A stretch of DNA of 10,506 nt from a virus. Taxonomy: Duplodnaviria; Heunggongvirae; Uroviricota; Caudoviricetes. This document shows, in pieces, positions 1,439 through 10,506 of the stretch. Below the pieces are notes generated by a model. That model did no database searches and was not told the origin of the DNA. It was given only the letters and a program-made list of their open reading frames with translations. The stretch is taken from positions 1-10,506 of the IMG/VR virus record IMGVR_UViG_2529292883_000007; one strand, written 5' to 3'. The position numbers and the translations under genes were made by a program. Each line of letters opens with the position of its first letter. Position 1 is the stretch's first letter.

Positions 1439-1864
1439 TCAATGCACCACCACGGCATTTCCCGCCGGACCACCACGATTCATCTGATTGAAACCAGCAA
1501 TCACCACCGCGACAAGTTCATCAGCGTCTCGCACCAGTCGTTCATGCGCCTCCACCAGTTCCCGAAAATAAGCGGAACTGTGGCTGCGCATCCTGGCCAC
1601 CAGCGGAGGTGGCATTGCCTTTTCGATCGCTGGTAACAACGCCTGAATTTTTTTCACCGCATCAGGAGTATCTTTCTCCACCCAGCGGAAAATTTTCTGA
1701 GTATTGCGAGCTAGGGCTTCTGGGTGTGAATCGTCGTACAGTTCCGGAAACGTCATACCCAGCTCAAAATAAGCCTGGGTTATTTCAGCCGCCGGAACTT
1801 TTTCACCGTCCGGATACGCCCAGGCATTCATCGCCATGCGGATGTGTTCATGCTTGATTTTCAT
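1439..1864 (-). CDS. ydaT: YdaT-family protein (Rac prophage YdaT-like, CII-like position)
   Basis: 141-aa ORF starting MKIKHEHI..., which I recall as the YdaT N-terminus. Its ATG (1864-1862) overlaps the stop of the upstream Cro-like gene in an ATGA arrangement, implying translational coupling. Confidence 0.6.
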   Translation of the reverse strand: MKIKHEHIRMAMNAWAYPDGEKVPAAEITQAYFELGMTFPELYDDSHPEALARNTQKIFRWVEKDTPDAVKKIQALLPAIEKAMPPPLVARMRSHSSAYFRELVEAHERLVRDADELVAVVIAGFNQMNRGGPAGNAVVVH

Positions 1865-2121
1865 GAATCAACTCCCGCCACTTGCTGTGTGTTAGCCTGA
1901 AACTCAGCAGGCAAGCCGTCGGTTGGGTTGGGATAAATATCAGGGCGAATTTCATGCGGGGTAACTTCCCAGCTCATTAGCTGACATAACGGAATTACCT
2001 GCTTTGGGGGAACGCCAAAGCTAAACCATTGCCAAACAGTCTGTTGAGCGACCCCCATATAACGACCTATTTCAGCTTGAGAGAATTTCTGCCTAATTTT
2101 TTCGCGAGTGCTATCTATCAT
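1861..2121 (-). CDS. Cro/YdaS-like helix-turn-helix regulator
   Basis: 86-aa ORF with an HTH-like segment (SQAEIGRYMGVAQQTVWQW) and a GGAGG Shine-Dalgarno upstream of the ATG at 2121-2119. It is divergent from the repressor gene and first in the leftward operon. Confidence 0.65.
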   Translation of the reverse strand: MIDSTREKIRQKFSQAEIGRYMGVAQQTVWQWFSFGVPPKQVIPLCQLMSWEVTPHEIRPDIYPNPTDGLPAEFQANTQQVAGVDS

Positions 2122-2230: not shown

Positions 2231-2632
2231 ATGATGAACGCCTTAGAAGTATCTATGTACAGAATCAGCAAGCTTCTCCAAGAAACAGGATGGAGCCAGG
2301 CTGAGCTTGCTCGTAGAATTGGTGTGACACAACAAACTGTTCAACAATGGGTCAGCGGTAAAGCTACACCTAAAGCCTCAAGTTTGGATAAACTGGTTGA
2401 GGTTACAGGGCATCCATTGCATTGGTTTTTATTGCCTCCTGAAGAGGGTGAGCAAATCTTCACCCCTGATACGATGAAAATTGGTCCTCGCCAACGCGAA
2501 CTGCTCCAGGCTTTTAGTGCGTTTCCAGAAGAAGACCAAGAAAAAATGCTTCAGGAAATCAAAGACAAGAAAAAATCAATGGAAGAAACCATTGCTCGAT
2601 GGTTGGCGGCGCAAAAAATCCGCCGAGCGTGA
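2231..2632 (+). CDS. XRE-family HTH repressor (PaaR-like / DicA-analogous prophage repressor)
   Basis: 133-aa ORF with an N-terminal XRE HTH (SQAELARRIGVTQQTVQQWVSG). It is divergent from the Cro-like gene and lies directly upstream of the antitoxin and ParE genes, matching the paaR-paaA-parE three-gene layout as I remember it. Confidence 0.7.
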   Translation: MMNALEVSMYRISKLLQETGWSQAELARRIGVTQQTVQQWVSGKATPKASSLDKLVEVTGHPLHWFLLPPEEGEQIFTPDTMKIGPRQRELLQAFSAFPEEDQEKMLQEIKDKKKSMEETIARWLAAQKIRRA

Positions 2633-2657
2633 CCAGTGAACAAAGAGGAGTCATGTC

Positions 2658-2849
2658 ATGAGTACAGCCCTTTCTCCGATAGTTTCAGAATTCGAAACTA
2701 CCGAACAAGAAAACAGTTACAACGAATGGTTGCGCGCTAAAGTCGCGTCAAGCTTTGCAGATCATCGCCCCGCAATACCGCATGACGAGGTGATGGCTGA
2801 AATGGAAAATCTTATTGCTCAAATTGCTGCGACTAGCGGGAGTGTGTAA
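2658..2849 (+). CDS. PaaA-type small antitoxin (ParE-associated)
   Basis: 63-aa ORF with a GAGGAG Shine-Dalgarno 7 nt upstream. Its stop codon overlaps the start of the ParE reading frame (TAATG at 2847-2851). The sequence (SPIVSEFETTEQENSYNEWLRAKVA...) resembles PaaA-type antitoxins from memory. Confidence 0.6.
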   Translation: MSTALSPIVSEFETTEQENSYNEWLRAKVASSFADHRPAIPHDEVMAEMENLIAQIAATSGSV

Positions 2850-3138
2850 TGCTACCCATTTTATGGCTACCATCTGCTCGCGATGATTTGCGTCAGATCG
2901 TAGCCTATATTGCCAAGGAAAATGTTCCACAGCAGCTCGTAGACTAAAAATACGTATTGAAACGTCTGTTTTAGCCCTCTCAGAGCATCCATATCTATAT
3001 CCGCCAAGTGATAGAGTATCCGGTTTGCGGGAAATTGTAGCTCACCCTAATTATATCGTTTTGTACCGAGTAGCAGCTTCAAGCATTGAAATTGTAAATA
3101 TTGTGCATACCCGCAGACAGTTTCCCTTCCCTGCCTGA
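2849..3138 (+). pseudogene. parE: ParE-family toxin gene disrupted by a frameshift
   Basis: The frame from ATG 2849 encodes a ParE-like N-terminus (MLPILWLPSARDDLRQIVAYIAKENVP...) and stops at TAA 2945-2947. A different frame, open from 2887 to the TGA at 3136-3138, encodes a ParE-like C-terminus (...AARRLKIRIETSVLALSEHPYLYPPSDRVSGLREIVAHPNYIVLYRVAASSIEIVNIVHTRRQFP). The switch point is near 2927-2935. Confidence 0.6.
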
Positions 3139-3156: not shown

Positions 3157-3180
3157 TCCCTCATACGAGGGATTTTTTTT
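3157..3180 (+). terminator. Intrinsic terminator after the repressor-TA operon
   Basis: Stem TCCCTC (3157-3162) / GAGGGA (3167-3172) with loop ATAC, followed by 8 T (3173-3180). Confidence 0.6.
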
Positions 3181-3191
3181 GCCAAAAAACA

Positions 3192-3235
3192 ACAATTAAA
3201 AACTGTTGACACCAAACAGTTTTTAATTGTAGATT
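3192..3235 (+). promoter_or_regulatory. Operator O2 overlapping a rightward early promoter (pL analogue)
   Basis: ACAATTAAAAACTGT (3192-3206), spacer tgacaccaa, ACAGTTTTTAATTGT (3216-3230); perfect 15-bp arms, one base different from O1. A consensus -35 TTGACA (3204-3209) straddles the left arm and spacer; a -10 candidate TAGATT lies at 3230-3235 but the spacing is long, so the exact -10 is uncertain. Confidence 0.55.
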
Positions 3236-3414
3236 GTTTTCACCAGCCCACCCCGTCCCACAGAATGCAGGGCAAAACTTCGAGTTACCAGGCAGTGGTC
3301 AGGGGTTAAGTAGCCAGCCCGAGGCGTATGAACATGACGGCAGGGATCAAATTTAATAACTATGCAGCAGGTTTTTGTTCCGCTACCCCGGCGTTAAGGG
3401 GAAATGAGGTCAAC

Positions 3415-3571: not shown

Positions 3572-3718
3572 ATGAACGAAACAGAATTAAAACACGTTAT
3601 CGCTCTGCTTCTGGAGGATGCAAAACGCCTCCAGCAACTGGAACCAAATGCAGGCACTGAAGCCCGCATCTGGCTGGCATTGTACGCTATTGAGTCAGGT
3701 CGTGATGATGAAGGTTAA
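3572..3718 (+). CDS. ydfB: YdfB-like small protein
   Basis: 48-aa ORF (MNETELKHVIALLLEDAKRLQQLEPNAGTEARIWLALYAIESGRDDEG), absent from the ORF track because it is under 60 aa. AGGTGA Shine-Dalgarno 5 nt upstream; the ATG is 1 nt after the ydfA-like stop. Confidence 0.45.
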   Translation: MNETELKHVIALLLEDAKRLQQLEPNAGTEARIWLALYAIESGRDDEG

Positions 3719-3999
3719 GCATCATCTAAGTTTTTTACATAGCGCCCATTAGATTCGGTAACAAGAACTCCGGGATTTTTCTTAACTTTTGAGGCCACTG
3801 ATTCAGCAAGGTTAGCAACAGATTCTTTGTCTTCATTCTTGCTTGAATATGTATATTCGGCATTAGGAAGTCGGTAGGTGTTCCCTGAAGAGGTTGTAAT
3901 CGTTCTGGAGAATCCCTTTGCTTCCATTCGTTCATGAAGCTTATCGTAATCAGCGGAACTGGAATCGCGAAGTTCGATCCTGACTGTAAATTTTGCCAT
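3715..3999 (-). CDS. Hypothetical 94-aa protein, convergent to the early operon
   Basis: ATG at 3999-3997 preceded by a strong GGAGGATAAA Shine-Dalgarno (the longer track ORF starts inside this SD, so the 94-aa form is preferred). Its stop overlaps the ydfB-like stop by 4 bp (TTAA at 3715-3718). Non-repetitive, protein-like composition; family not recognised. Confidence 0.6.
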   Translation of the reverse strand: MAKFTVRIELRDSSSADYDKLHERMEAKGFSRTITTSSGNTYRLPNAEYTYSSKNEDKESVANLAESVASKVKKNPGVLVTESNGRYVKNLDDA

Positions 4000-4335
4000 T
4001 TTATCCTCCATTAAGGGCTGAATTAAAAATGGAGACCAACACGCTGCTACGTGTGGTCGTGCGCCGGACACGGATAAGAATCCGGCACTGACAGTTTACT
4101 GAAAGGATATTTCCCTGAAAAGTCAGGGCATAACACGAAAGCGTACGGCGAAGGCCTTCACCTATGAGGTTTGTCGTTAAATTTCTTCGACCGTGCGCTT
4201 CCGGTTGTGGCACTCCGCGAAATGGCGCGGTGGTAAGTATGGCGGGGTTATTCCTTCCCCCGTTGAGGACACCGGGTTGTCAGGTTGACCATACACTTAA
4301 GTGACAACCCCGCTGCAACGCCCTCTGTTATCAAT

Positions 4336-4393
4336 TTTCTGGTGACGTTTGGCGGTATCAGTTTTACTCCGTGACTGCTCTGCCGCCCTTTTT
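4336..4393 (+). ncRNA. dicF: DicF small RNA (ftsZ-targeting prophage sRNA) with its 3' terminator hairpin
   Basis: TTTCTGGTGACGTTTGGCGGTATCAGTTTTACTCCGTGACTGCTCTGCCGCCC followed by TTTTT matches my recollection of the DicF sequence. It ends in a GGCGG...CCGCC hairpin plus a U-run, and lies downstream of ydfA/ydfB-like genes as in Qin. Confidence 0.7.
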
Positions 4394-4801: not shown

Positions 4802-5035
4802 ATGAAAATAGAAACTATCAGCTACATCAAGAAAAACGCAGCCTCACTGGACCTGGCTGAACCAATTCTTGTCACGCAGAATGGTGTTCCTGCATACGTA
4901 ATTGAATCCTATGAGCAGCAACAGGAACGCGAGAATGCTATTGCGTTACTGAAACTTCTCACTATTTCAGAAAGTGACAGGTCTGAAGGCCGCGTGTTTT
5001 CAAAAGAACAGTTGCTGGATAGCTTTAACAAGTAA
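4802..5035 (+). CDS. Phd/YefM-family antitoxin
   Basis: 77-aa ORF (MKIETISYIKKNAASLDLAEPILVTQNGVPAYVIESYEQQQERENAIALLKLL...) with the Phd/YefM pattern. The toxin ORF follows 8 nt after its stop. Confidence 0.7.
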   Translation: MKIETISYIKKNAASLDLAEPILVTQNGVPAYVIESYEQQQERENAIALLKLLTISESDRSEGRVFSKEQLLDSFNK

Positions 5036-5043
5036 GGTTGACG

Positions 5044-5364
5044 ATGCAGATTGAATACACGCTTACCGCCAGAACAAGCCTTGAGCAAATTGCCGACCAT
5101 CTCCGGAGTAACGACATTGACCCACTCCCTGTAATAGAAGAAATTCTTGAACGATTTGAAACAAGAGTTACGGCATTCCCGTCCGGATGCCAGTTATGCC
5201 CGGAGTTGCTCAAACTTGGCGTGGCGAAATATAGAGAATGCAACACACCAGAAGGTTACAGAGTGCTGTACTCTGTAGAAGGGGATGTTATCACTGCACA
5301 CGCGGTTCTTTCCCAACGTCAGGATATTAAACAGTTACTGTTCAGGCGACTGATTAGAGCTTAG
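5044..5364 (+). CDS. RelE/ParE-superfamily toxin (putative)
   Basis: 106-aa ORF from ATG 5044 (the track begins at an in-frame TTG at 5038), with AAGG 6 nt upstream. ParE/RelE-like pattern (conserved N-terminal helix, and YRVLYSVEGDVITAHAVL near the C-terminus). Lies directly downstream of the Phd/YefM antitoxin. Confidence 0.55.
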   Translation: MQIEYTLTARTSLEQIADHLRSNDIDPLPVIEEILERFETRVTAFPSGCQLCPELLKLGVAKYRECNTPEGYRVLYSVEGDVITAHAVLSQRQDIKQLLFRRLIRA

Positions 5365-5455: not shown

Positions 5456-5510
5456 TTGTCCGCACCTCATAAAACGGGTGCCGGGCGTGGAAACCCGATG
5501 TTCACTAACG

Positions 5511-5543
5511 CGCATAACCGCGCTCAGGCGGTTTTTTTATGCG
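5511..5543 (+). terminator. Terminator/attenuator hairpin within the rha leader
   Basis: Inner stem CCGC (5518-5521) / GCGG (5528-5531) with loop GCTCAG, followed by 7 T (5532-5538). An outer stem CGCATAA (5511-5517) / TTATGCG (5537-5543) could alternatively sequester part of the U-run. It sits about 55-80 nt downstream of the predicted start. Confidence 0.45.
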
Positions 5544-5707
5544 TAATGCACAGCCACATTCAGATTATGGTGGGACGTGCAGGGCAGCCGCAAGGCTGGC
5601 CGGGTTCGTTAGTGACCGGTATTTCCACCCCTGTACGTCTCACCACCCTTATGGTCGTGGAAAACCTTGGTGGTGAGTTAATCAAATTCACTAACGAGGC
5701 TGCTATC

Positions 5708-6262
5708 ATGGCTACTATCCCTACCCTTTCTCACCCTGACGTAACCATCAAAAATGGTCGCGCTGTCACTACGTCTGTTGCGGTTGCAGAGTTCTTCCGC
5801 AAAATGCACAAGGACGTTTTGCGCAAAATTGAAACGCTAGAATGCTCTGAAGATTTTAACGAGCGCAATTTTACGCCCGTTACCTACACCGACGCCAAAG
5901 GCGAAAAACGACCAATGTACCAAATCACCAAAAACGGCTTCGTTTTCCTGGTGATGGGGTTCACCGGCAAAAAAGCCGCAGCTTTCAAGGAAGCCTACAT
6001 CGCTGAATTCGATCGCATGGAGGCAGAGTTGTACCAGCTTAATACCACTACCACAGACAAAATAATTCCTGGTGATGGTCGCACTCTCGTTGTTCACTTC
6101 GACGAACGCGGCAATATCAAATTCACCGAAACCGTTCCTGACGGCGCTCTCGTCTGTACTCTGGATACTTTCCGCTTTTATCTGGAGAAGCAGGGGTGGA
6201 CTCTTGTAAACAGGAGCGCAATTAAAAATATGACCGTCGAGCAGTTGCTGAGTATTAAATAG
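5708..6262 (+). CDS. rha: Rha-family phage regulatory protein
   Basis: 184-aa ORF from ATG 5708 with a GAGG Shine-Dalgarno 8 nt upstream. The N-terminus (KNGRAVTTSVAVAEFFRKMHKDVLRKIETL...YQITKNGFVFLVMGFTGKKAAAFKEAYIAEFDRME) matches the Rha domain pattern. The track's longer 268-aa ORF starts at a TTG inside the promoter -10 and is not preferred. Confidence 0.7.
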   Translation: MATIPTLSHPDVTIKNGRAVTTSVAVAEFFRKMHKDVLRKIETLECSEDFNERNFTPVTYTDAKGEKRPMYQITKNGFVFLVMGFTGKKAAAFKEAYIAEFDRMEAELYQLNTTTTDKIIPGDGRTLVVHFDERGNIKFTETVPDGALVCTLDTFRFYLEKQGWTLVNRSAIKNMTVEQLLSIK

Positions 6263-6647: not shown

Positions 6648-9086
6648 TTGATGAGCACGAATAAAGAACTGTTTGCGCTATATTGCGAAGCTAAAAATGA
6701 CAAGGTCAGAAAGCGTCTCGGTATTAAAGGTGGCTTTTTCTGGATCGAAGCCAAAAAACTTTCCGTTGCAGTTTCCCGCTGTATTGCCGCTATGGACGAT
6801 GCTGGCTACGACGAAGATGATTTCAAAAAAACAGTTCGCGTCCATTTGCCTGTTGTAAATGACCTGCCACCTGAAGGCGTATTTGATACTGATTTCTGTA
6901 ACCGTTACGAAAAAGGTGGAGAAGATGGCATCACAATGATGCCGGTACCGTCCAGCAACAGCGATGAAAACAGTAACGCCGCTAATACTAACGTCAACGG
7001 CGAAGACATGACTGAGATTGAGGAGAATATGCTTCTGCCGGTTTCAGGTCAGCTTCTGCCTGTTAGATGGCTGGCACAGCACGGCAGCGAAAAACCTGTC
7101 ACGCATGTTTCACGGGATGAACTGCGGGCATTACATAACGCACAGGAAGAAAAACTTCCCGCCGTTACCGCTCTGGCCATCTCAAATAAAGCAGTGCAAC
7201 TCGAACCGCTGGAGATTCGGGATTTGTACAAACTGGTGCGGGACACTGACAAAGTTTTTCCCGCCCCCGTAAATTCAGACCTGGGACTGATGACTTCCTT
7301 CATCGAAGCATACCTGGACGCTGACTACACCAATCGCGGTCTGCTTACAAAAGAGTGGATGAAAGGAAATCATGTTTCGCGAATCAGCCGCACACCATCC
7401 GGCGCTAACGCTGGCGGCGGTATTCTTACCGATCGCGGCGAAGGTTTTGTACACGATGATGCATCACTGGCGCGCGACGTAGCCACTGGCGTGCTGGCCC
7501 GTTCAATGGACGTGGACATTTATAACCTTCATCCGGCACACGCTAAACGCGTCGAGGAAATTATCGCTGAAAATAAACCGCCCTTTTCTGTTTTCTTCAG
7601 CAAATTCATCACCATGCCGGGCCACAAGGATTTCTCCCGTGCCATCGTGGTTGCCTCCGTGAAAGAAGCACCAGTTGGTATAGAGGCTATGCCCCACCGT
7701 GTCACCGAATACCTGAATAAGGTGCTGACTGAAACCGATCATGCCAACCCTGATCCGGAAATCGTGGATATTGCCTGCGGTCGCTCCTCTGCCCCGATGC
7801 CGCAGCGTGTAACGGAAAAAGAAAAACATGATGAAGAAAAACCGCAACCATCTGGCGCAATGGCAGATGAACAGGCAACGGCTGAAACAGTGGAACCGGA
7901 TGCAACTGAACATCATCCGGACACGCAGCCGGTGGATGCTCAGCCACAGGTGAATTCTGTTGATGCGAAATATCAGAAACTGCGGGCAGAACTCCATGAA
8001 GCCAGGAAAAACATTTCGCCTAAAAATCCTGTCGACGCAAACAAATTACTGGCCGCCTCTCGCGGAGAATTTGTTGAAGGGATTAGTGACCCGAATGATC
8101 CGAAATGGGTTAAGGGGCACCAGACTCGCGAGTCTTCGAACCAGAATCAACCAGAAGTGGAACAAACCAGGTCAGAATCGGGACAAAATAGCCAGGATGC
8201 ACACCAAAATGAACCAAAAACGATACATCCGGAGCCAGCAGCGCAACATGCACAGAAAAATCCCTGTAATGTTTGTGGGGAAACTGGCGGGGGCACATGC
8301 CCTGACTGTGCCTCAGTAATGGGTGACGCAACTTACCATGAGACATTCTGCGAGGAAGATTCAGATGAATCTCAGGAAAAAGCTCCGGAGGAGATGGAAA
8401 ACCCTGAACATCCGCATCCGGAAAATACTGACAGCAATCAGCATAACAATAGCGGTGATAAAACTGACAGGACGACAAATTCCTTAATTAATATGTACGG
8501 TTATAAGAAAAGAACATCCACCAGCAGAATGTGTCACCATCTGATGATCGACCTTGAAACAATGGGAAAAAATCCTGATTCCCCGATTATCTCAATAGGT
8601 GCAATATTTTTCGATCCGCAAACCGGAGAGATGGGACCAGAATTTAATAAAACCATCGATCTGGAAACTGCTGGCGGAGTCATTGATCGGGACGCGATCA
8701 AGTGGTGGCTGAAGCAATCACGCGAAGCGCAATCTGCCATTCTGACCGATGAAATCCCGTTAGATGATGCACTGCTGCAATTGCGGGAATTTATCGCCGA
8801 AAACTCCGGTGAATTGTTTGTTCAGGTCTGGGGAAATGGAGCCAACTTCGACAACGTGATTTTGCGCCGTTCATATGAACGGCAGGGTATCCCCTGCCCG
8901 TGGCGCTACTACAACGATCGCGATGTACGCACAATCATTGAACTGGGAAAATCCATAGACTTCGATGCCAGGACGCCTATTCAATTCGAAGGCATACGCC
9001 ACAATGCGCTGGATGATGCCCGTCACCAGGCGAAATACGTTTCAGCAATCTGGCAAAAACTGATCCCGAATCAGTCTGATTTTTAA
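6648..9086 (+). CDS. Large prophage exonuclease: RecE-like N-terminal/central region fused to a C-terminal DEDDh (DnaQ/RNase T-like) 3'-5' exonuclease domain
   Basis: 812-aa ORF with GAGG 8 nt upstream. The C-terminal domain has the three DEDDh motifs: Exo I MIDLETMG, Exo [14 protein letters not shown], Exo [15 protein letters not shown] CxxC-x7-CxxC motif ([15 protein letters not shown]) and an acidic, Pro/Gln/Glu-rich low-complexity segment lie between the N-terminal region and the nuclease domain. It occupies the exo/recE position upstream of xis-int. Confidence 0.75.
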
Positions 9087-9149: not shown

Positions 9150-9398
9150 ATGGCAAGACTTATTCTGCTCACTGAGTGGGCAAAAGAGGAATTCAGCGAT
9201 CCGGTCCCTACTCCGGGCACGTTAAGTAAATACGCTAAAGCCGGAATGATATTTCCTCTCCCCAAAAAAGTTGGAAGACACTGGCGAGTGGATCCGCGAG
9301 CTCGCTTTGTCGGAATGGTAAACAAGCCGGAGGTGATCGCCACAGATCATCCTGCTTTAAAGAGGATACTGGAAGATGGCACGCCCGCGAAAATATAA
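9150..9398 (+). CDS. xis: Excisionase (Xis-like)
   Basis: 82-aa ORF immediately upstream of int, with its 3' end overlapping the int start by 23 nt as in lambda xis/int. The sequence (LTEWAKEEF...MIFPLPKKVGRHWRVDP) resembles excisionase-family proteins. Confidence 0.65.
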   Translation: MARLILLTEWAKEEFSDPVPTPGTLSKYAKAGMIFPLPKKVGRHWRVDPRARFVGMVNKPEVIATDHPALKRILEDGTPAKI

Positions 9399-10506
9399 AA
9401 CCGCTGTTCCGGGATTATCTCCGTATTTTGACAAAAGAAATAACAAAGTTTACTGGCGTTACAGGCATCCCATCACAGGTAAAAATCATGGACTCGGCAG
9501 TATTGACCAGAAACTGGCGGAAACCATTGCAGCAGAAGCGAACAGCCGTCTTGCCAGACAACAAATGGAGCAAATGCTCAGTCTGCAGGAGAAAATTATT
9601 AGTGATACCGGCGGCGCATCAACCGTTTCCATTTTTCTGAATAATTACAGAAAAATTCAACAGGAAAGATATGAGAACGGAGAGATCAAACTCAGCACGC
9701 TGAAGCAAAAAGCGGCTCCTCTCAGGGTGTTTGATGAACGTTTTGGAGCCAGGCCGCTAGATGCCATAACCGTAAAAGATGTGGTATCAGTGCTGGAAGA
9801 ATACAAGGCAAAGGGACATAACAGAATGGGACAAATTTTCAGGAAGGTCTTGATCGATGTTTTCCGGGAGGCTCAACAAACGGGTGATGTCCCGCCAGGC
9901 TTTAACCCGGCTGAATCGGCAAAAAAACCGCAAGTGCGGATATCAAGACAGCGACTGACTTTTGATGAGTGGATGATGATTTATAACGCAGCGGAAAAGG
10001 ATGGTTACTTTTTACAGCGCGGCATGCTGCTGGCTCTGATGACGGGCCAGCGTCTTTCGGATATTTGCAAAATGCAGTTTTCGGATATCCGGGATGGTTA
10101 CCTTCATGTCGAACAGCAAAAAACAGGAGCCCGGATAGCCATTCCTCTGGCTCTGCGTTGCGACAAATTAAATCGTACCCTGGGTGACGTGGTGTCATCC
10201 TGTCGTGATTACATCCTTAGTCCGTGGTTATTGCACCATCATCACGCTAAGGGGATGGGTAAGCGCGGCGGGATGGTTAAACCAGCAACGTTAACAGTCG
10301 CATTTAAAAAAGCCCGGGATTCTGTGGATTACAACTGGCGTGCTAATGGCACGCCACCCTCTTTCCATGAGCAAAGATCTTTATCAGAACGATTGTTCAG
10401 AGAACAGGGAATTGATACCAAAATTTTGCTGGGTCATTCGAATCAAAAAATGACCGATATTTACAACGATGCACGCGGTAAGGAGTGGAAAAAACTGGTC
10501 ATTTGA
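9376..10506 (+). CDS. int: Lambda-family tyrosine integrase
   Basis: 376-aa ORF with clear similarity to lambda Int as I recall it: RLTFDEWMMIYNAAEKDGYF / MTGQRLSDICKMQFSDIRDGYLHVEQQKTGARIAIPLAL and the C-terminal PPSFHEQRSLSERLF...LLGHSNQKMTDIYNDARGKEWKKL, including the catalytic R...HxxR...Y arrangement. The stop is at the window edge, so the att site should lie just downstream of the window. Confidence 0.9.
   Translation: MARPRKYKTAVPGLSPYFDKRNNKVYWRYRHPITGKNHGLGSIDQKLAETIAAEANSRLARQQMEQMLSLQEKIISDTGGASTVSIFLNNYRKIQQERYENGEIKLSTLKQKAAPLRVFDERFGARPLDAITVKDVVSVLEEYKAKGHNRMGQIFRKVLIDVFREAQQTGDVPPGFNPAESAKKPQVRISRQRLTFDEWMMIYNAAEKDGYFLQRGMLLALMTGQRLSDICKMQFSDIRDGYLHVEQQKTGARIAIPLALRCDKLNRTLGDVVSSCRDYILSPWLLHHHHAKGMGKRGGMVKPATLTVAFKKARDSVDYNWRANGTPPSFHEQRSLSERLFREQGIDTKILLGHSNQKMTDIYNDARGKEWKKLVI

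What the first reader, a model, noticed from the sequence alone, without database searches (positions are those of the whole stretch)
2231..3138. Immunity repressor fused to a PaaA-ParE cassette in which only the toxin is frameshifted
The prophage repressor gene is directly followed by a PaaA-type antitoxin and a ParE-type toxin, with overlapping stop/start (TAATG), as in the three-component paaR-paaA-parE systems described in E. coli O157 prophages. Here the ParE reading frame breaks near 2927-2947: the N-terminal 32 codons end at TAA while the ParE-like C-terminus continues in another frame to 3138. One missing base in the CCA codon at 2927-2929 (a -1 shift) would join the two frames as ...YIAKENVPTAARRLKIRIE.... 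The regulator and antitoxin are intact. This is consistent with selection having removed toxicity while keeping the repressor, which doubles as the lysogeny regulator.
Basis: partly seen in the sequence, partly recalled or inferred. Interest (0 to 1): 0.6.

Follow-up and report, generated by a model that had tools for sequence, protein, structure and literature searches.

The report
Frameshifted ParE toxin beside prophage repressor
This is the already described three-gene paaR-paaA-parE toxin-antitoxin operon in the immunity region of a lambda-like E. coli prophage, with the toxin gene knocked out by a genuine 2-base duplication; it is an ordinary case of a toxin gene decaying first.

Summary
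An HTH repressor gene (2231-2632) is followed by a PaaA2-family antitoxin (2658-2849). A ParE gene comes next, with a TAATG stop/start overlap, and is split between two frames (2849-2947, then the -1 frame to 3138).

The lesion is misdescribed. Intact relatives show a 2-bp CA duplication (TTCCAGCAG to TTCCACAGCAG, 2928-2931), not one missing base. The ancestral junction reads ...KENVPAARRLK... in a 95-aa protein.

An assembly artefact is very unlikely. The same insertion occurs in three NCBI assemblies and in a Logan re-assembly of run SRR077223. Two of these E. coli hosts differ clearly in their flanking DNA.

The cassette is closest (89% nt; PaaR 129/133 aa) to the O157:H7 EDL933 copy that is not paaR2-paaA2-parE2. 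It has the published architecture: divergent ydaS/ydaT, OR- and OL-like palindromes, a PL-like promoter and a terminator after parE.

The toxin is intact in all 91 other enteric loci examined. It is disrupted next to a recognisable paaA in 10 of 36 species-representative genomes, so decay of the toxin is recurrent in this family.

The antitoxin reading frame is intact but carries two lineage-private replacements, one at a conserved Leu. paaR has none. Selection against toxicity is possible but not shown. This is a known system and of low interest.

The parts
1861..2121 (-). ydaS-like (Cro analogue) gene, transcribed divergently from paaR
   Evidence: PF15943 YdaS_toxin E=2.5e-10. It occupies the same position as ydaS in CP-933P (PMC8630535).
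1439..1864 (-). ydaT-like (CII analogue) gene
   Evidence: PF06254 YdaT_toxin E=3.5e-10; PMC8630535 and PMC9986795.
2156..2194 (.). OR-like operator palindrome ACAATAAAAAACTGT-N9-ACAGTTTTTTATTGT in the ydaS-paaR intergenic region
   Evidence: Perfect 15-nt inverted repeat I3, and 48-nt direct-repeat family D1 shared with 3183-3230. Binding by the repressor is inferred by analogy with PaaR2.
2231..2632 (+). paaR-type CI-like repressor gene, 133 aa, intact
   Evidence: HTH_3 E=1.7e-13 and Phage_CI_repr E=9.8e-6, with no peptidase S24 hit. 129/133 aa identical to the EDL933 copy. 42% identical to the PaaR2-type regulator over residues 37-133. The protein is identical in relatives with intact parE.
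2658..2849 (+). paaA antitoxin gene, 63 aa, reading frame intact, with private L33F (2754) and P36H (2764)
   Evidence: PF21217 PaaA2 E=1.8e-19; PaaA2 3zbe E=3.7e-21; substitutions.
2849..2947 (+). parE pseudogene, 5' part: 32 codons, of which the first 27 are ParE and 5 are out of frame, then TAA
   Evidence: ParE_toxin profile positions 1-25; tblastn 1-27 at 100%.
2928..2931 (+). CACA: site of the 2-bp CA tandem duplication that shifts the parE frame
   Evidence: Alignment to A8 and ETEC1703 and to L005-L012. The identical insertion is in L003, L004, L009, L131 and L132.
2932..3138 (+). parE pseudogene, 3' part in the -1 frame (residues 28-95 plus TGA). There is no start codon in this frame before 3025.
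   Evidence: ParE_toxin profile positions 25-89, E=1.5e-8; tblastn 28-95; ORF list.
3157..3182 (+). Intrinsic-terminator-like hairpin plus T-run, ending the paaR-paaA-parE operon
   Evidence: 6-bp stem with 4 GC pairs, then TTTTTTTT.
3184..3238 (.). OL-like operator palindrome, a copy of the OR element, overlapping a PL-like promoter TTGACA-18-TAGATT (3206-3235, + strand)
   Evidence: Repeats D1, I1 and I2. It holds the only promoter-like hit in the region. Analogous to PL933P/OL in PMC8630535.

Best explanation
The window is the early/immunity region of a Rac/lambda-like prophage integrated next to ompW in E. coli.

Genes and sites:
- paaR (2231-2632) encodes a CI-like, non-SOS-cleavable HTH repressor.
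- It probably binds the near-identical palindromes at 2156-2194 (OR) and 3184-3238 (OL). From there it would repress the divergent ydaS/ydaT (Cro/CII-like) operon and the leftward PL operon, which carries a DUF1391 gene, DicF, kilR and exo. This step is inferred by analogy with PaaR2.
- paaA and parE sit behind paaR in the same operon, like rexAB behind cI in lambda, and would normally act as an addiction module.

The lesion:
- In this lineage a CA dinucleotide duplication at 2928-2931 shifts the parE frame after codon 27. Translation ends at 2945-2947.
- The 68 C-terminal residues have no start codon of their own and there is no slippery site, so no active toxin is made. The sequence shows this directly. 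Loss of toxicity itself is inferred.
- The mutation is genuine and heritable. It is found in several assemblies and in two different E. coli backgrounds.

Why the toxin goes first:
- Inactivating the toxin is the only harmless way to lose a TA pair, so toxin-first decay is the expected route.
- The antitoxin then becomes dispensable. Its two private amino-acid changes hint at this.
- paaR stays under constraint because it keeps harmful prophage genes silent.
For: - Domain assignments and the split ParE match.
- Repaired ParE against ParE2 (5cw7) E=4e-38, and PaaA against PaaA2 (3zbe) E=4e-21.
- The +2 CA insertion relative to all intact alleles.
- The same insertion in GCA_910664855.1 (100% identical over all 10,506 bp), GCA_000241995.1, GCA_902840095.1 (6 SNPs) and a Logan re-assembly of SRR077223.
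- The prophage differs by 11 positions in 13.2 kb between two carriers, whereas their host flank differs by about 113 positions in 2.3 kb.
- The host flank is 99.4% identical to E. coli.
- Operators, promoter and terminator.
- Published functional model for the homologous locus: PMC8630535.
- PaaR C-terminal homology to the PaaR2-type regulator.
- No X XXY YYZ heptamer in the zone where both frames are open.
- Private changes: paaR 0, paaA 2 nonsynonymous, parE the indel plus 1 nonsynonymous.
- L33 is conserved in 91 of 91 other enteric loci.
- Toxin disrupted beside a recognisable paaA in 10 of 36 species-representative loci.
- Essentiality of the analogous RacR repressor: PMC5700377 and PMC5700373, abstracts.
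Against: - No raw reads were inspected, so a shared systematic error cannot be formally excluded. It is implausible for a non-homopolymer 2-bp insertion seen in independent projects.
- Repressor binding to the palindromes, operon structure, leaderless paaR translation and loss of toxicity are all inferred from homology, not measured.
- The substitution counts (3 against 0) are too small to establish relaxed selection statistically.
- In 91 other enteric loci parE is intact, so toxin loss is not the common state in E. coli. The possibility that it was selected for here cannot be dismissed.
Confidence: 0.85

Rival explanations
1. Adaptive detoxification. The frameshift was positively selected because ParE activity was costly in this host, for example through SOS induction or gyrase poisoning. 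The repressor, and possibly the antitoxin, were kept by selection.
For: - Only parE carries a disabling lesion, while paaR has no private change at all.
- The allele persists in at least two E. coli backgrounds.
- An orphan PaaA could act as an anti-addiction factor against incoming related ParE toxins (general knowledge, not tested here).
Against: - Jurenas et al. detected no ParE2 activity or SOS cost under steady-state expression, so a strong fitness cost is not evident.
- parE is intact in 91 of 91 other enteric loci, which argues against a general cost.
- PaaA itself has two private nonsynonymous changes, one at a conserved Leu. That looks like relaxed constraint rather than maintained constraint.
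- Toxin-first loss is what neutral decay of any TA pair predicts.
Confidence: 0.2
2. Sequencing or assembly artefact. The true genome has an intact 288-bp parE.
For: No read pile-up was examined. Two of the assemblies are 100% identical over the window and could be the same strain.
Against: - The insertion is a non-homopolymer CA dinucleotide.
- It is present in three NCBI assemblies from different projects, including a complete 5.19-Mb chromosome, and in an independent Logan re-assembly of raw run SRR077223.
- One carrier differs from the window by 6 SNPs and has a host flank that diverges clearly, so it is a different strain.
- The insertion co-segregates perfectly with other private SNPs at 2652, 2754, 2764 and 3109.
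Confidence: 0.03
3. Recoding. Full-length ParE is still made at a low level by -1 ribosomal frameshifting or transcriptional slippage in the 2887-2944 overlap of the two open frames. The TA pair would then be attenuated rather than dead.
For: The downstream frame is -1 relative to the upstream frame. Both frames are open over about 58 nt, so a single -1 slip would yield a protein one residue longer than wild type.
Against: - There is no canonical X XXY YYZ heptamer in the overlap. Only G GAA AAT is present, which allows A-site re-pairing only.
- There is no long A or T run for transcriptional slippage.
- All intact relatives lack the insertion, so this is a recent lesion rather than a conserved recoding signal.
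Confidence: 0.02

Closest known systems
paaR1-paaA1-parE1 of E. coli O157:H7 (Hallez et al. 2010, as summarised in PMC4803016). Identified here by exclusion as the EDL933 cassette that is not paaR2-paaA2-parE2 (locus L013).
   Same: - Same gene order, the same TAATG-type overlap and the same flanking genes: ydaT and ydaS on one side, DUF1391/ydfA and an exonuclease on the other.
- 89% nucleotide identity over 867 bp.
- PaaR 129/133, PaaA 54/63 and repaired ParE 82/95 identical.
   Different: - parE carries the CA duplication and is a pseudogene.
- PaaA has F33 and H36, where EDL933 has L33 and T36.
- The intergenic spacer is 25 nt rather than 27 nt.
- The assignment to system '1' is by exclusion.
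paaR2-paaA2-parE2 of cryptic prophage CP-933P / Sp12 (Jurenas et al. 2021, PMC8630535; structures 3zbe, 5cw7, 5cze, 5czf)
   Same: - A three-component operon in a lambdoid immunity region, divergent from ydaS-ydaT.
- Operator copies both upstream (OR) and downstream (OL/PL) of the operon.
- The repressor lacks an S24 peptidase domain.
- PaaA has no DNA-binding domain.
- ParE 62/93 and PaaA 39/53 identical.
- The PaaR C-terminal region is conserved.
   Different: - The HTH part of the repressor differs, with no alignment before residue 37 and 42% identity after it.
- The operator sequence differs: an ACAATAAAAAACTGT palindrome here against GTTTAGTAA-type repeats. This makes it a heteroimmune variant.
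- The toxin is frameshifted here.
Lambda cI-rexA-rexB operon between OL and OR
   Same: A repressor gene followed by accessory 'moron' genes in one operon. The operon is flanked by operator sets that control divergent early promoters.
   Different: - The proteins are unrelated apart from the HTH class.
- PaaR has no RecA-cleavable domain.
- The accessory genes are a TA pair, not an exclusion system.
RacR-YdaS-YdaT (Rac) and DicA-DicB/DicF (Qin) cryptic-prophage switches of E. coli K-12
   Same: The repressor of a defective prophage must be retained because derepression of ydaS/ydaT or of kil/dicB/DicF is harmful (PMC5700377, PMC5700373). The window contains ydaS, ydaT, DicF and a kilR homologue (annotations).
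   Different: Those loci have no TA pair behind the repressor.

Membership tests
PaaR-PaaA-ParE three-component type II TA system | Gene order regulator-antitoxin-toxin on one strand with tight spacing or overlap, forming an operon | tested here: met
   Genes at 2231-2632, 2658-2849 and 2849-. A 25-nt spacer, a TAATG overlap and a single terminator-like hairpin after parE. Co-transcription itself was not measured.
PaaR-PaaA-ParE three-component type II TA system | The antitoxin is a small PaaA2-family protein without a DNA-binding domain | tested here: met
   63 aa. The only Pfam hit is PF21217 PaaA2, E=1.8e-19. Match to the PaaA2 structure 3zbe at E=3.7e-21.
PaaR-PaaA-ParE three-component type II TA system | A ParE-family toxin homologous to ParE1/ParE2, encoded as an intact ORF | tested here: not met
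The ORF, however, is broken by a +2 CA insertion after codon 27. It is a pseudogene of a family member, not a functional toxin.
PaaR-PaaA-ParE three-component type II TA system | A separate HTH regulator homologous to PaaR | tested here: met
   HTH_3 E=1.7e-13. 97% identical to the EDL933 cassette regulator. 42% identical to the PaaR2-type regulator of phage Evi over residues 37-133, E=5e-21.
PaaR-PaaA-ParE three-component type II TA system | Toxicity of ParE, neutralisation by the cognate PaaA, and plasmid stabilisation (addiction) | not testable with these tools
   Needs expression and stability assays. From the sequence, loss of toxicity and of addiction is predicted.
Lambdoid prophage immunity region with a CI / Cro / CII-analogue switch (CP-933P type) | The repressor gene is divergent from a ydaS (Cro-like) and ydaT (CII-like) operon, followed by replication genes | tested here: met
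   YdaS_toxin and YdaT_toxin hits on the minus strand at 1861-2121 and 1439-1864. A 321-aa ORF follows at 452-1417; its relatives are annotated 'phage replisome organizer'. DUF977 lies at 1-411.
Lambdoid prophage immunity region with a CI / Cro / CII-analogue switch (CP-933P type) | Related operator sets on both sides of the repressor operon (OR and OL), with the OL set overlapping a PL promoter | tested here: met
   A 48-nt repeat at 2147-2194 and 3183-3230 (79% identical), each copy containing a 15-24-nt palindrome. TTGACA-18-TAGATT lies inside the OL copy. Protein binding was not tested.
Lambdoid prophage immunity region with a CI / Cro / CII-analogue switch (CP-933P type) | Prophage context: integrase/excisionase and an early left operon | tested here: met
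   Integrase at 9376-10506, Exc at 9150-9398, Exonuc_VIII at 6648-9086, Rha/Ash at 5456-6262, and DicF at 4337-4388. The host flank ompW-yciC-yciB is 99.4% identical to E. coli.

The most novel reading that the evidence does not exclude
The dead-toxin allele may be a natural test of the proposal by Jurenas et al. that PaaA-ParE addiction stabilises the immunity region.

In the chromosome identical to the window (OU349842.1), the prophage's right arm abuts an IS fragment and the distant host genes ldr and bcsEFG. A second carrier still has the RusA/Q region. In this reading, loss of ParE would have permitted rearrangement.

The orphan PaaA, with L33F and P36H, might then be retained or retuned as an anti-addiction factor against ParE toxins of incoming heteroimmune prophages.
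Probability: 0.08. Interest if true: 0.45.

Novelty: already known. Interest (0 to 1): 0.15.

Why it matters
It matters little beyond annotation.
- It shows that the paaR1-type cassette can lose its toxin through a simple dinucleotide duplication while the prophage repressor and the antitoxin reading frame persist and spread between E. coli lineages.
- It corrects the annotation of this locus. The correct label is a parE pseudogene with a +2 insertion. Calling a 32-aa ORF, or the spurious 41-aa antisense ORF that some gene callers report here, is wrong.
- The allele could serve as a natural null control for anyone testing whether PaaA-ParE addiction stabilises prophage immunity regions.

Tried and rejected
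1. Deleting a single base never joins the frames. Alignment shows a +2 insertion.
2. Exact 30-mer across the lesion in genome contigs, viral contigs and metagenome contigs. There were 0 hits, so those collections could not identify the source. Exact-protein look-ups did identify it.
3. Megablast of the cassette against the phage collection. No match.
4. Programmed -1 frameshifting. No slippery heptamer in the overlap zone.
5. Independent translation of the ParE C-terminus. There is no ATG, GTG or TTG in that frame before 3025, which would give only 37 aa.
6. Cross-protection as a reason to keep PaaA. The second ParE-family toxin in the window (5038-5364) has no detectable pairwise similarity to the frameshifted ParE and has its own Phd/YefM partner.
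7. Structured RNA in 2231-3138. No Rfam family reaches its gathering score there.
8. A non-E. coli host, suggested by at most 63% coverage of the window in complete E. coli genomes. This was rejected because the host flank is 99.4% identical to E. coli; the low coverage reflects prophage mosaicism.
9. Identity with the paaR2 system. Rejected: ParE is only 62/93 identical, and the regulator's HTH region and the operators differ.

Full report
**Observation.** The window carries three co-oriented genes between 2231 and 3138.
- The first is a 133-aa HTH protein at 2231-2632. Its Pfam hits are HTH_3 (E=1.7e-13) and Phage_CI_repr (E=9.8e-6), with no peptidase S24 hit.
- The second is a 63-aa protein at 2658-2849. 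Its only Pfam match is PF21217 PaaA2, E=1.8e-19.
- The third starts at the TAATG overlap (2847-2851). It is a 32-codon ORF ending at the TAA at 2945-2947, and it matches ParE_toxin profile positions 1-25.
- The -1 frame continues to the TGA at 3136-3138 and matches ParE_toxin positions 25-89, E=1.5e-8.

The described anatomy is therefore real, and the two halves are parts of one ParE gene.

**Nature of the lesion.** Deleting one base cannot join the frames.
- Alignment with the closest intact alleles shows TTCCAGCAG in both relatives and TTCCACAGCAG in the window. These alleles are E. coli A8 (99% identity) and ETEC1703 (93.6%).
- The lesion is thus a 2-bp CA tandem duplication within 2928-2931.
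- Intact parE is 288 bp (95 aa); the window's copy is 290 bp. Removing CA restores ...YIAKENVPAARRLKIRIE....
- The restored protein is identical to A8 ParE except for A86T.
- It matches the solved ParE2 (5cw7_B) at E=4e-38 and 62/93 identity.

**Artefact or real?** An exact 30-mer across the lesion was absent from three public collections. Exact-protein look-ups with the window's PaaA and PaaR did find the source.
- The window is 100% identical over all 10,506 bp to OU349842.1, a 5.19-Mb chromosome (GCA_910664855.1).
- It is 100% identical over the overlap to JH590550.1 (GCA_000241995.1) and to a Logan re-assembly of run SRR077223.
- It differs by 6 SNPs from CADGER010000004.1 (GCA_902840095.1).
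- All of these carry the CA insertion.
- Between OU349842.1 and CADGER01 the prophage differs at 11 positions in 13.2 kb. The adjacent host DNA (ompW-yciC-yciB) differs at about 113 positions in 2.3 kb.
- The same frameshifted prophage therefore sits in two different E. coli backgrounds. The host flank is 99.4% identical to E. coli.

A non-homopolymer 2-bp insertion that recurs across projects, and that co-segregates with private SNPs at 2652, 2754, 2764 and 3109, is very unlikely to be an assembly error. Read pile-ups were not available to me.

**What the locus is.** On the minus strand, upstream of paaR, lie three or four early-right genes.
- A YdaS-family gene lies at 1861-2121 and a YdaT-family gene at 1439-1864.
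- A 321-aa ORF follows; its relatives are annotated 'phage replisome organizer'. DUF977 comes next.

Downstream, on the plus strand, the window carries:
- a DUF1391 gene and DicF sRNA;
- a Phd/YefM-ParE pair;
- isrK and C4-like RNAs in front of an Ash/Rha gene;
- a kilR homologue and an Exonuc_VIII-family exonuclease;
- an excisionase and an integrase.

This is the layout of the CP-933P immunity region studied by Jurenas et al. (PMC8630535). In that work PaaR2 is a CI analogue and YdaS and YdaT are Cro and CII analogues. Operators lie in the paaR2-ydaS intergenic region, and again at a PL promoter on the far side of the TA operon.

The window has the equivalent features.
- A perfect palindrome ACAATAAAAAACTGT-N9-ACAGTTTTTTATTGT lies at 2156-2194.
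- A 79%-identical copy of the surrounding 48 nt lies at 3183-3230 and is itself palindromic.
- The only sigma-70-like match in the region, TTGACA-18-TAGATT at 3206-3235, sits inside that downstream copy and points into the left operon.
- A terminator-like hairpin with a T8 run at 3157-3182 closes the paaR-paaA-parE operon.
- paaR has no Shine-Dalgarno sequence. A -10-like TAAAAT ends 6 nt before its ATG. This fits the leaderless translation reported for paaR2 and cI, which is my inference.

- An EDL933 record holds a cassette 89% identical in DNA to the window. PaaR is 129/133, PaaA 54/63 and ParE 82/95 identical.
- That copy is not system 2, because its ParE is only 62/93 identical to ParE2. 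By exclusion I take it to be paaR1-paaA1-parE1.
- A cassette whose ParE is 100% identical to ParE2 occurs in phage Evi. Its 123-aa regulator aligns with the window's PaaR only from residue 37, at 42% identity, with a well conserved C-terminus (SAFPE..ARW.AAQK.RRA).
- Its intergenic region holds the GTTTAGTG-type repeats described in the paper.

The window's repressor is therefore a heteroimmune homologue of PaaR2, with a different HTH region and different operators.

**How unusual is the dead toxin?**
- The cassette occurs in 549 of 5,426 complete E. coli genomes, and none of them carries this allele.
- In the 60-row spread sample, the 55 rows covering at least 95% of the query have match spans that fit a 288-bp parE.
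- In 80 of 80 IMG/VR loci, and in all other enteric loci fetched (91 in total), a full-length single-frame ParE is present.
- Among 36 species-representative genomes with a PaaA homologue, 10 have a parE broken by frameshifts, stops or a 1.4-kb insertion next to a recognisable paaA. Nine are Bartonella and one is Gluconacetobacter.

Toxin disruption beside a retained antitoxin gene is thus a recurrent fate in this family, as addiction logic predicts. This does not show the order of loss in every case.

**Selection.** I compared the frameshift lineage with its nearest intact relatives, L005-L012, which encode an identical PaaR protein.
- The lineage has no private change in paaR (402 bp).
- It has two in paaA, both nonsynonymous: L33F at 2754 and P36H at 2764.
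- In parE it has the indel plus A86T at 3109.
- L33 is L in 91 of 91 other enteric loci and in 29 of 34 distant ones. P36 is variable.

This pattern suggests that the whole TA pair is now under relaxed constraint while paaR is not. Three substitutions cannot prove that. Jurenas et al. saw no ParE2 activity or SOS cost at steady state, and parE is otherwise conserved in E. coli. Retention of paaR needs no special explanation, because repressors of defective Rac-type prophages are essential: they silence ydaS/ydaT (PMC5700377, PMC5700373). This prophage also carries kilR and DicF under the presumed PL.

**Alternatives rejected.**
- Programmed -1 frameshifting: there is no X XXY YYZ heptamer in the 2887-2944 overlap.
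- Independent translation of the C-terminal part: there is no start codon in that frame before 3025.
- PaaA kept in order to neutralise the window's second ParE-family toxin: that toxin shows no pairwise similarity to the frameshifted ParE and has its own Phd/YefM partner.
- A known structured RNA inside the cassette: no Rfam family matches there.

**Verdict.** The system is known and well characterised. The window holds a naturally inactivated allele of it. The indel mechanism is wrong, the word 'fused' is loose, and the selective story is untested. Interest is low. The most novel reading is that toxin loss allowed the IS-associated rearrangement seen at the prophage's right arm in OU349842.1 but not in the second carrier, with an orphan PaaA acting as an anti-addiction factor. 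This is speculative.

Noticed in passing
window 4802-5035 and 5038-5364 (+): A second, apparently intact type II TA pair in the PL operon. It comprises a Phd/YefM antitoxin (E=4.4e-8) and a ParE_toxin-family toxin (E=5.4e-8). The toxin has no pairwise similarity to the frameshifted ParE.
   Followed up: partly
window 4337-4388 (+): DicF antisense sRNA at full model length, 76.7 bits, in an ORF-poor stretch of the left operon.
   Followed up: no
window 5462-5538 and 5563-5650 (+): isrK (65.9 bits) and C4 antisense RNA (80.3 bits) lie in tandem. They overlap the 5' part of the long mechanical ORF 5456-6262, which has Ash and Rha domains. This resembles the P1 c4/ant or Gifsy isrK-anrP type of antirepressor control. 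The real Rha start is probably downstream of the RNAs.
   Followed up: no
window 3715-4071 (-): A convergent ORF with a borderline GhoS (type V antitoxin) Pfam hit, E=3.1e-4 and 21.1 bits against a cutoff of 21. No GhoT-like partner is obvious.
   Followed up: no
window 2754 and 2764 (paaA): Two nonsynonymous changes, L33F and P36H, are private to the frameshift lineage. L33 is otherwise conserved in 91 of 91 enteric homologues. This may be early decay of the orphan antitoxin.
   Followed up: yes
window 2171, 2175 (OR spacer) and 2652 (upstream of the paaA start): Further lineage-private substitutions. Two lie in the 9-nt spacer of the OR palindrome, which is the -35 region of the presumed PR on the minus strand. 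One lies 6 nt upstream of the paaA ATG.
   Followed up: no
L132 1-4600 versus L131 1-4600: In the chromosome identical to the window (OU349842.1), the prophage beyond a hok/gef gene abuts a transposase fragment, an Ldr toxin gene and bcsEFG. In GCA_902840095.1 it continues into M78 peptidase/HTH, DUF968, RusA and antiterminator Q genes. This points to an IS-associated rearrangement or truncation in one carrier.
   Followed up: partly
L131 versus L132, 17850-20192 (ompW-yciC-yciB): The host flank next to attachment differs at about 113 positions in 2.3 kb, 72 of them in a 500-bp bin around ompW. The prophage differs by 0.08%. The frameshifted prophage, or the whole ompW region, has moved between E. 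coli lineages.
   Followed up: partly
L017, L027, L029-L031, L034, L037, L039, L049, L050: Bartonella species and Gluconacetobacter sacchari carry paaA homologues next to parE genes disrupted by frameshifts, stops or roughly 1.4-kb insertions.
   Followed up: partly
L001 2618-2891 (E. coli A8): In the closest complete-genome relative the parE is intact, but the ydaS-like (Cro analogue) gene is annotated as frameshifted. A different component of the same switch has decayed there.
   Followed up: no
window 2867-2992 (-); L003 3210-3335: Gene callers place a 41-aa antisense ORF over the broken parE in the public assemblies. It is most likely a spurious call that fills the gap left by the pseudogene.
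   Followed up: no
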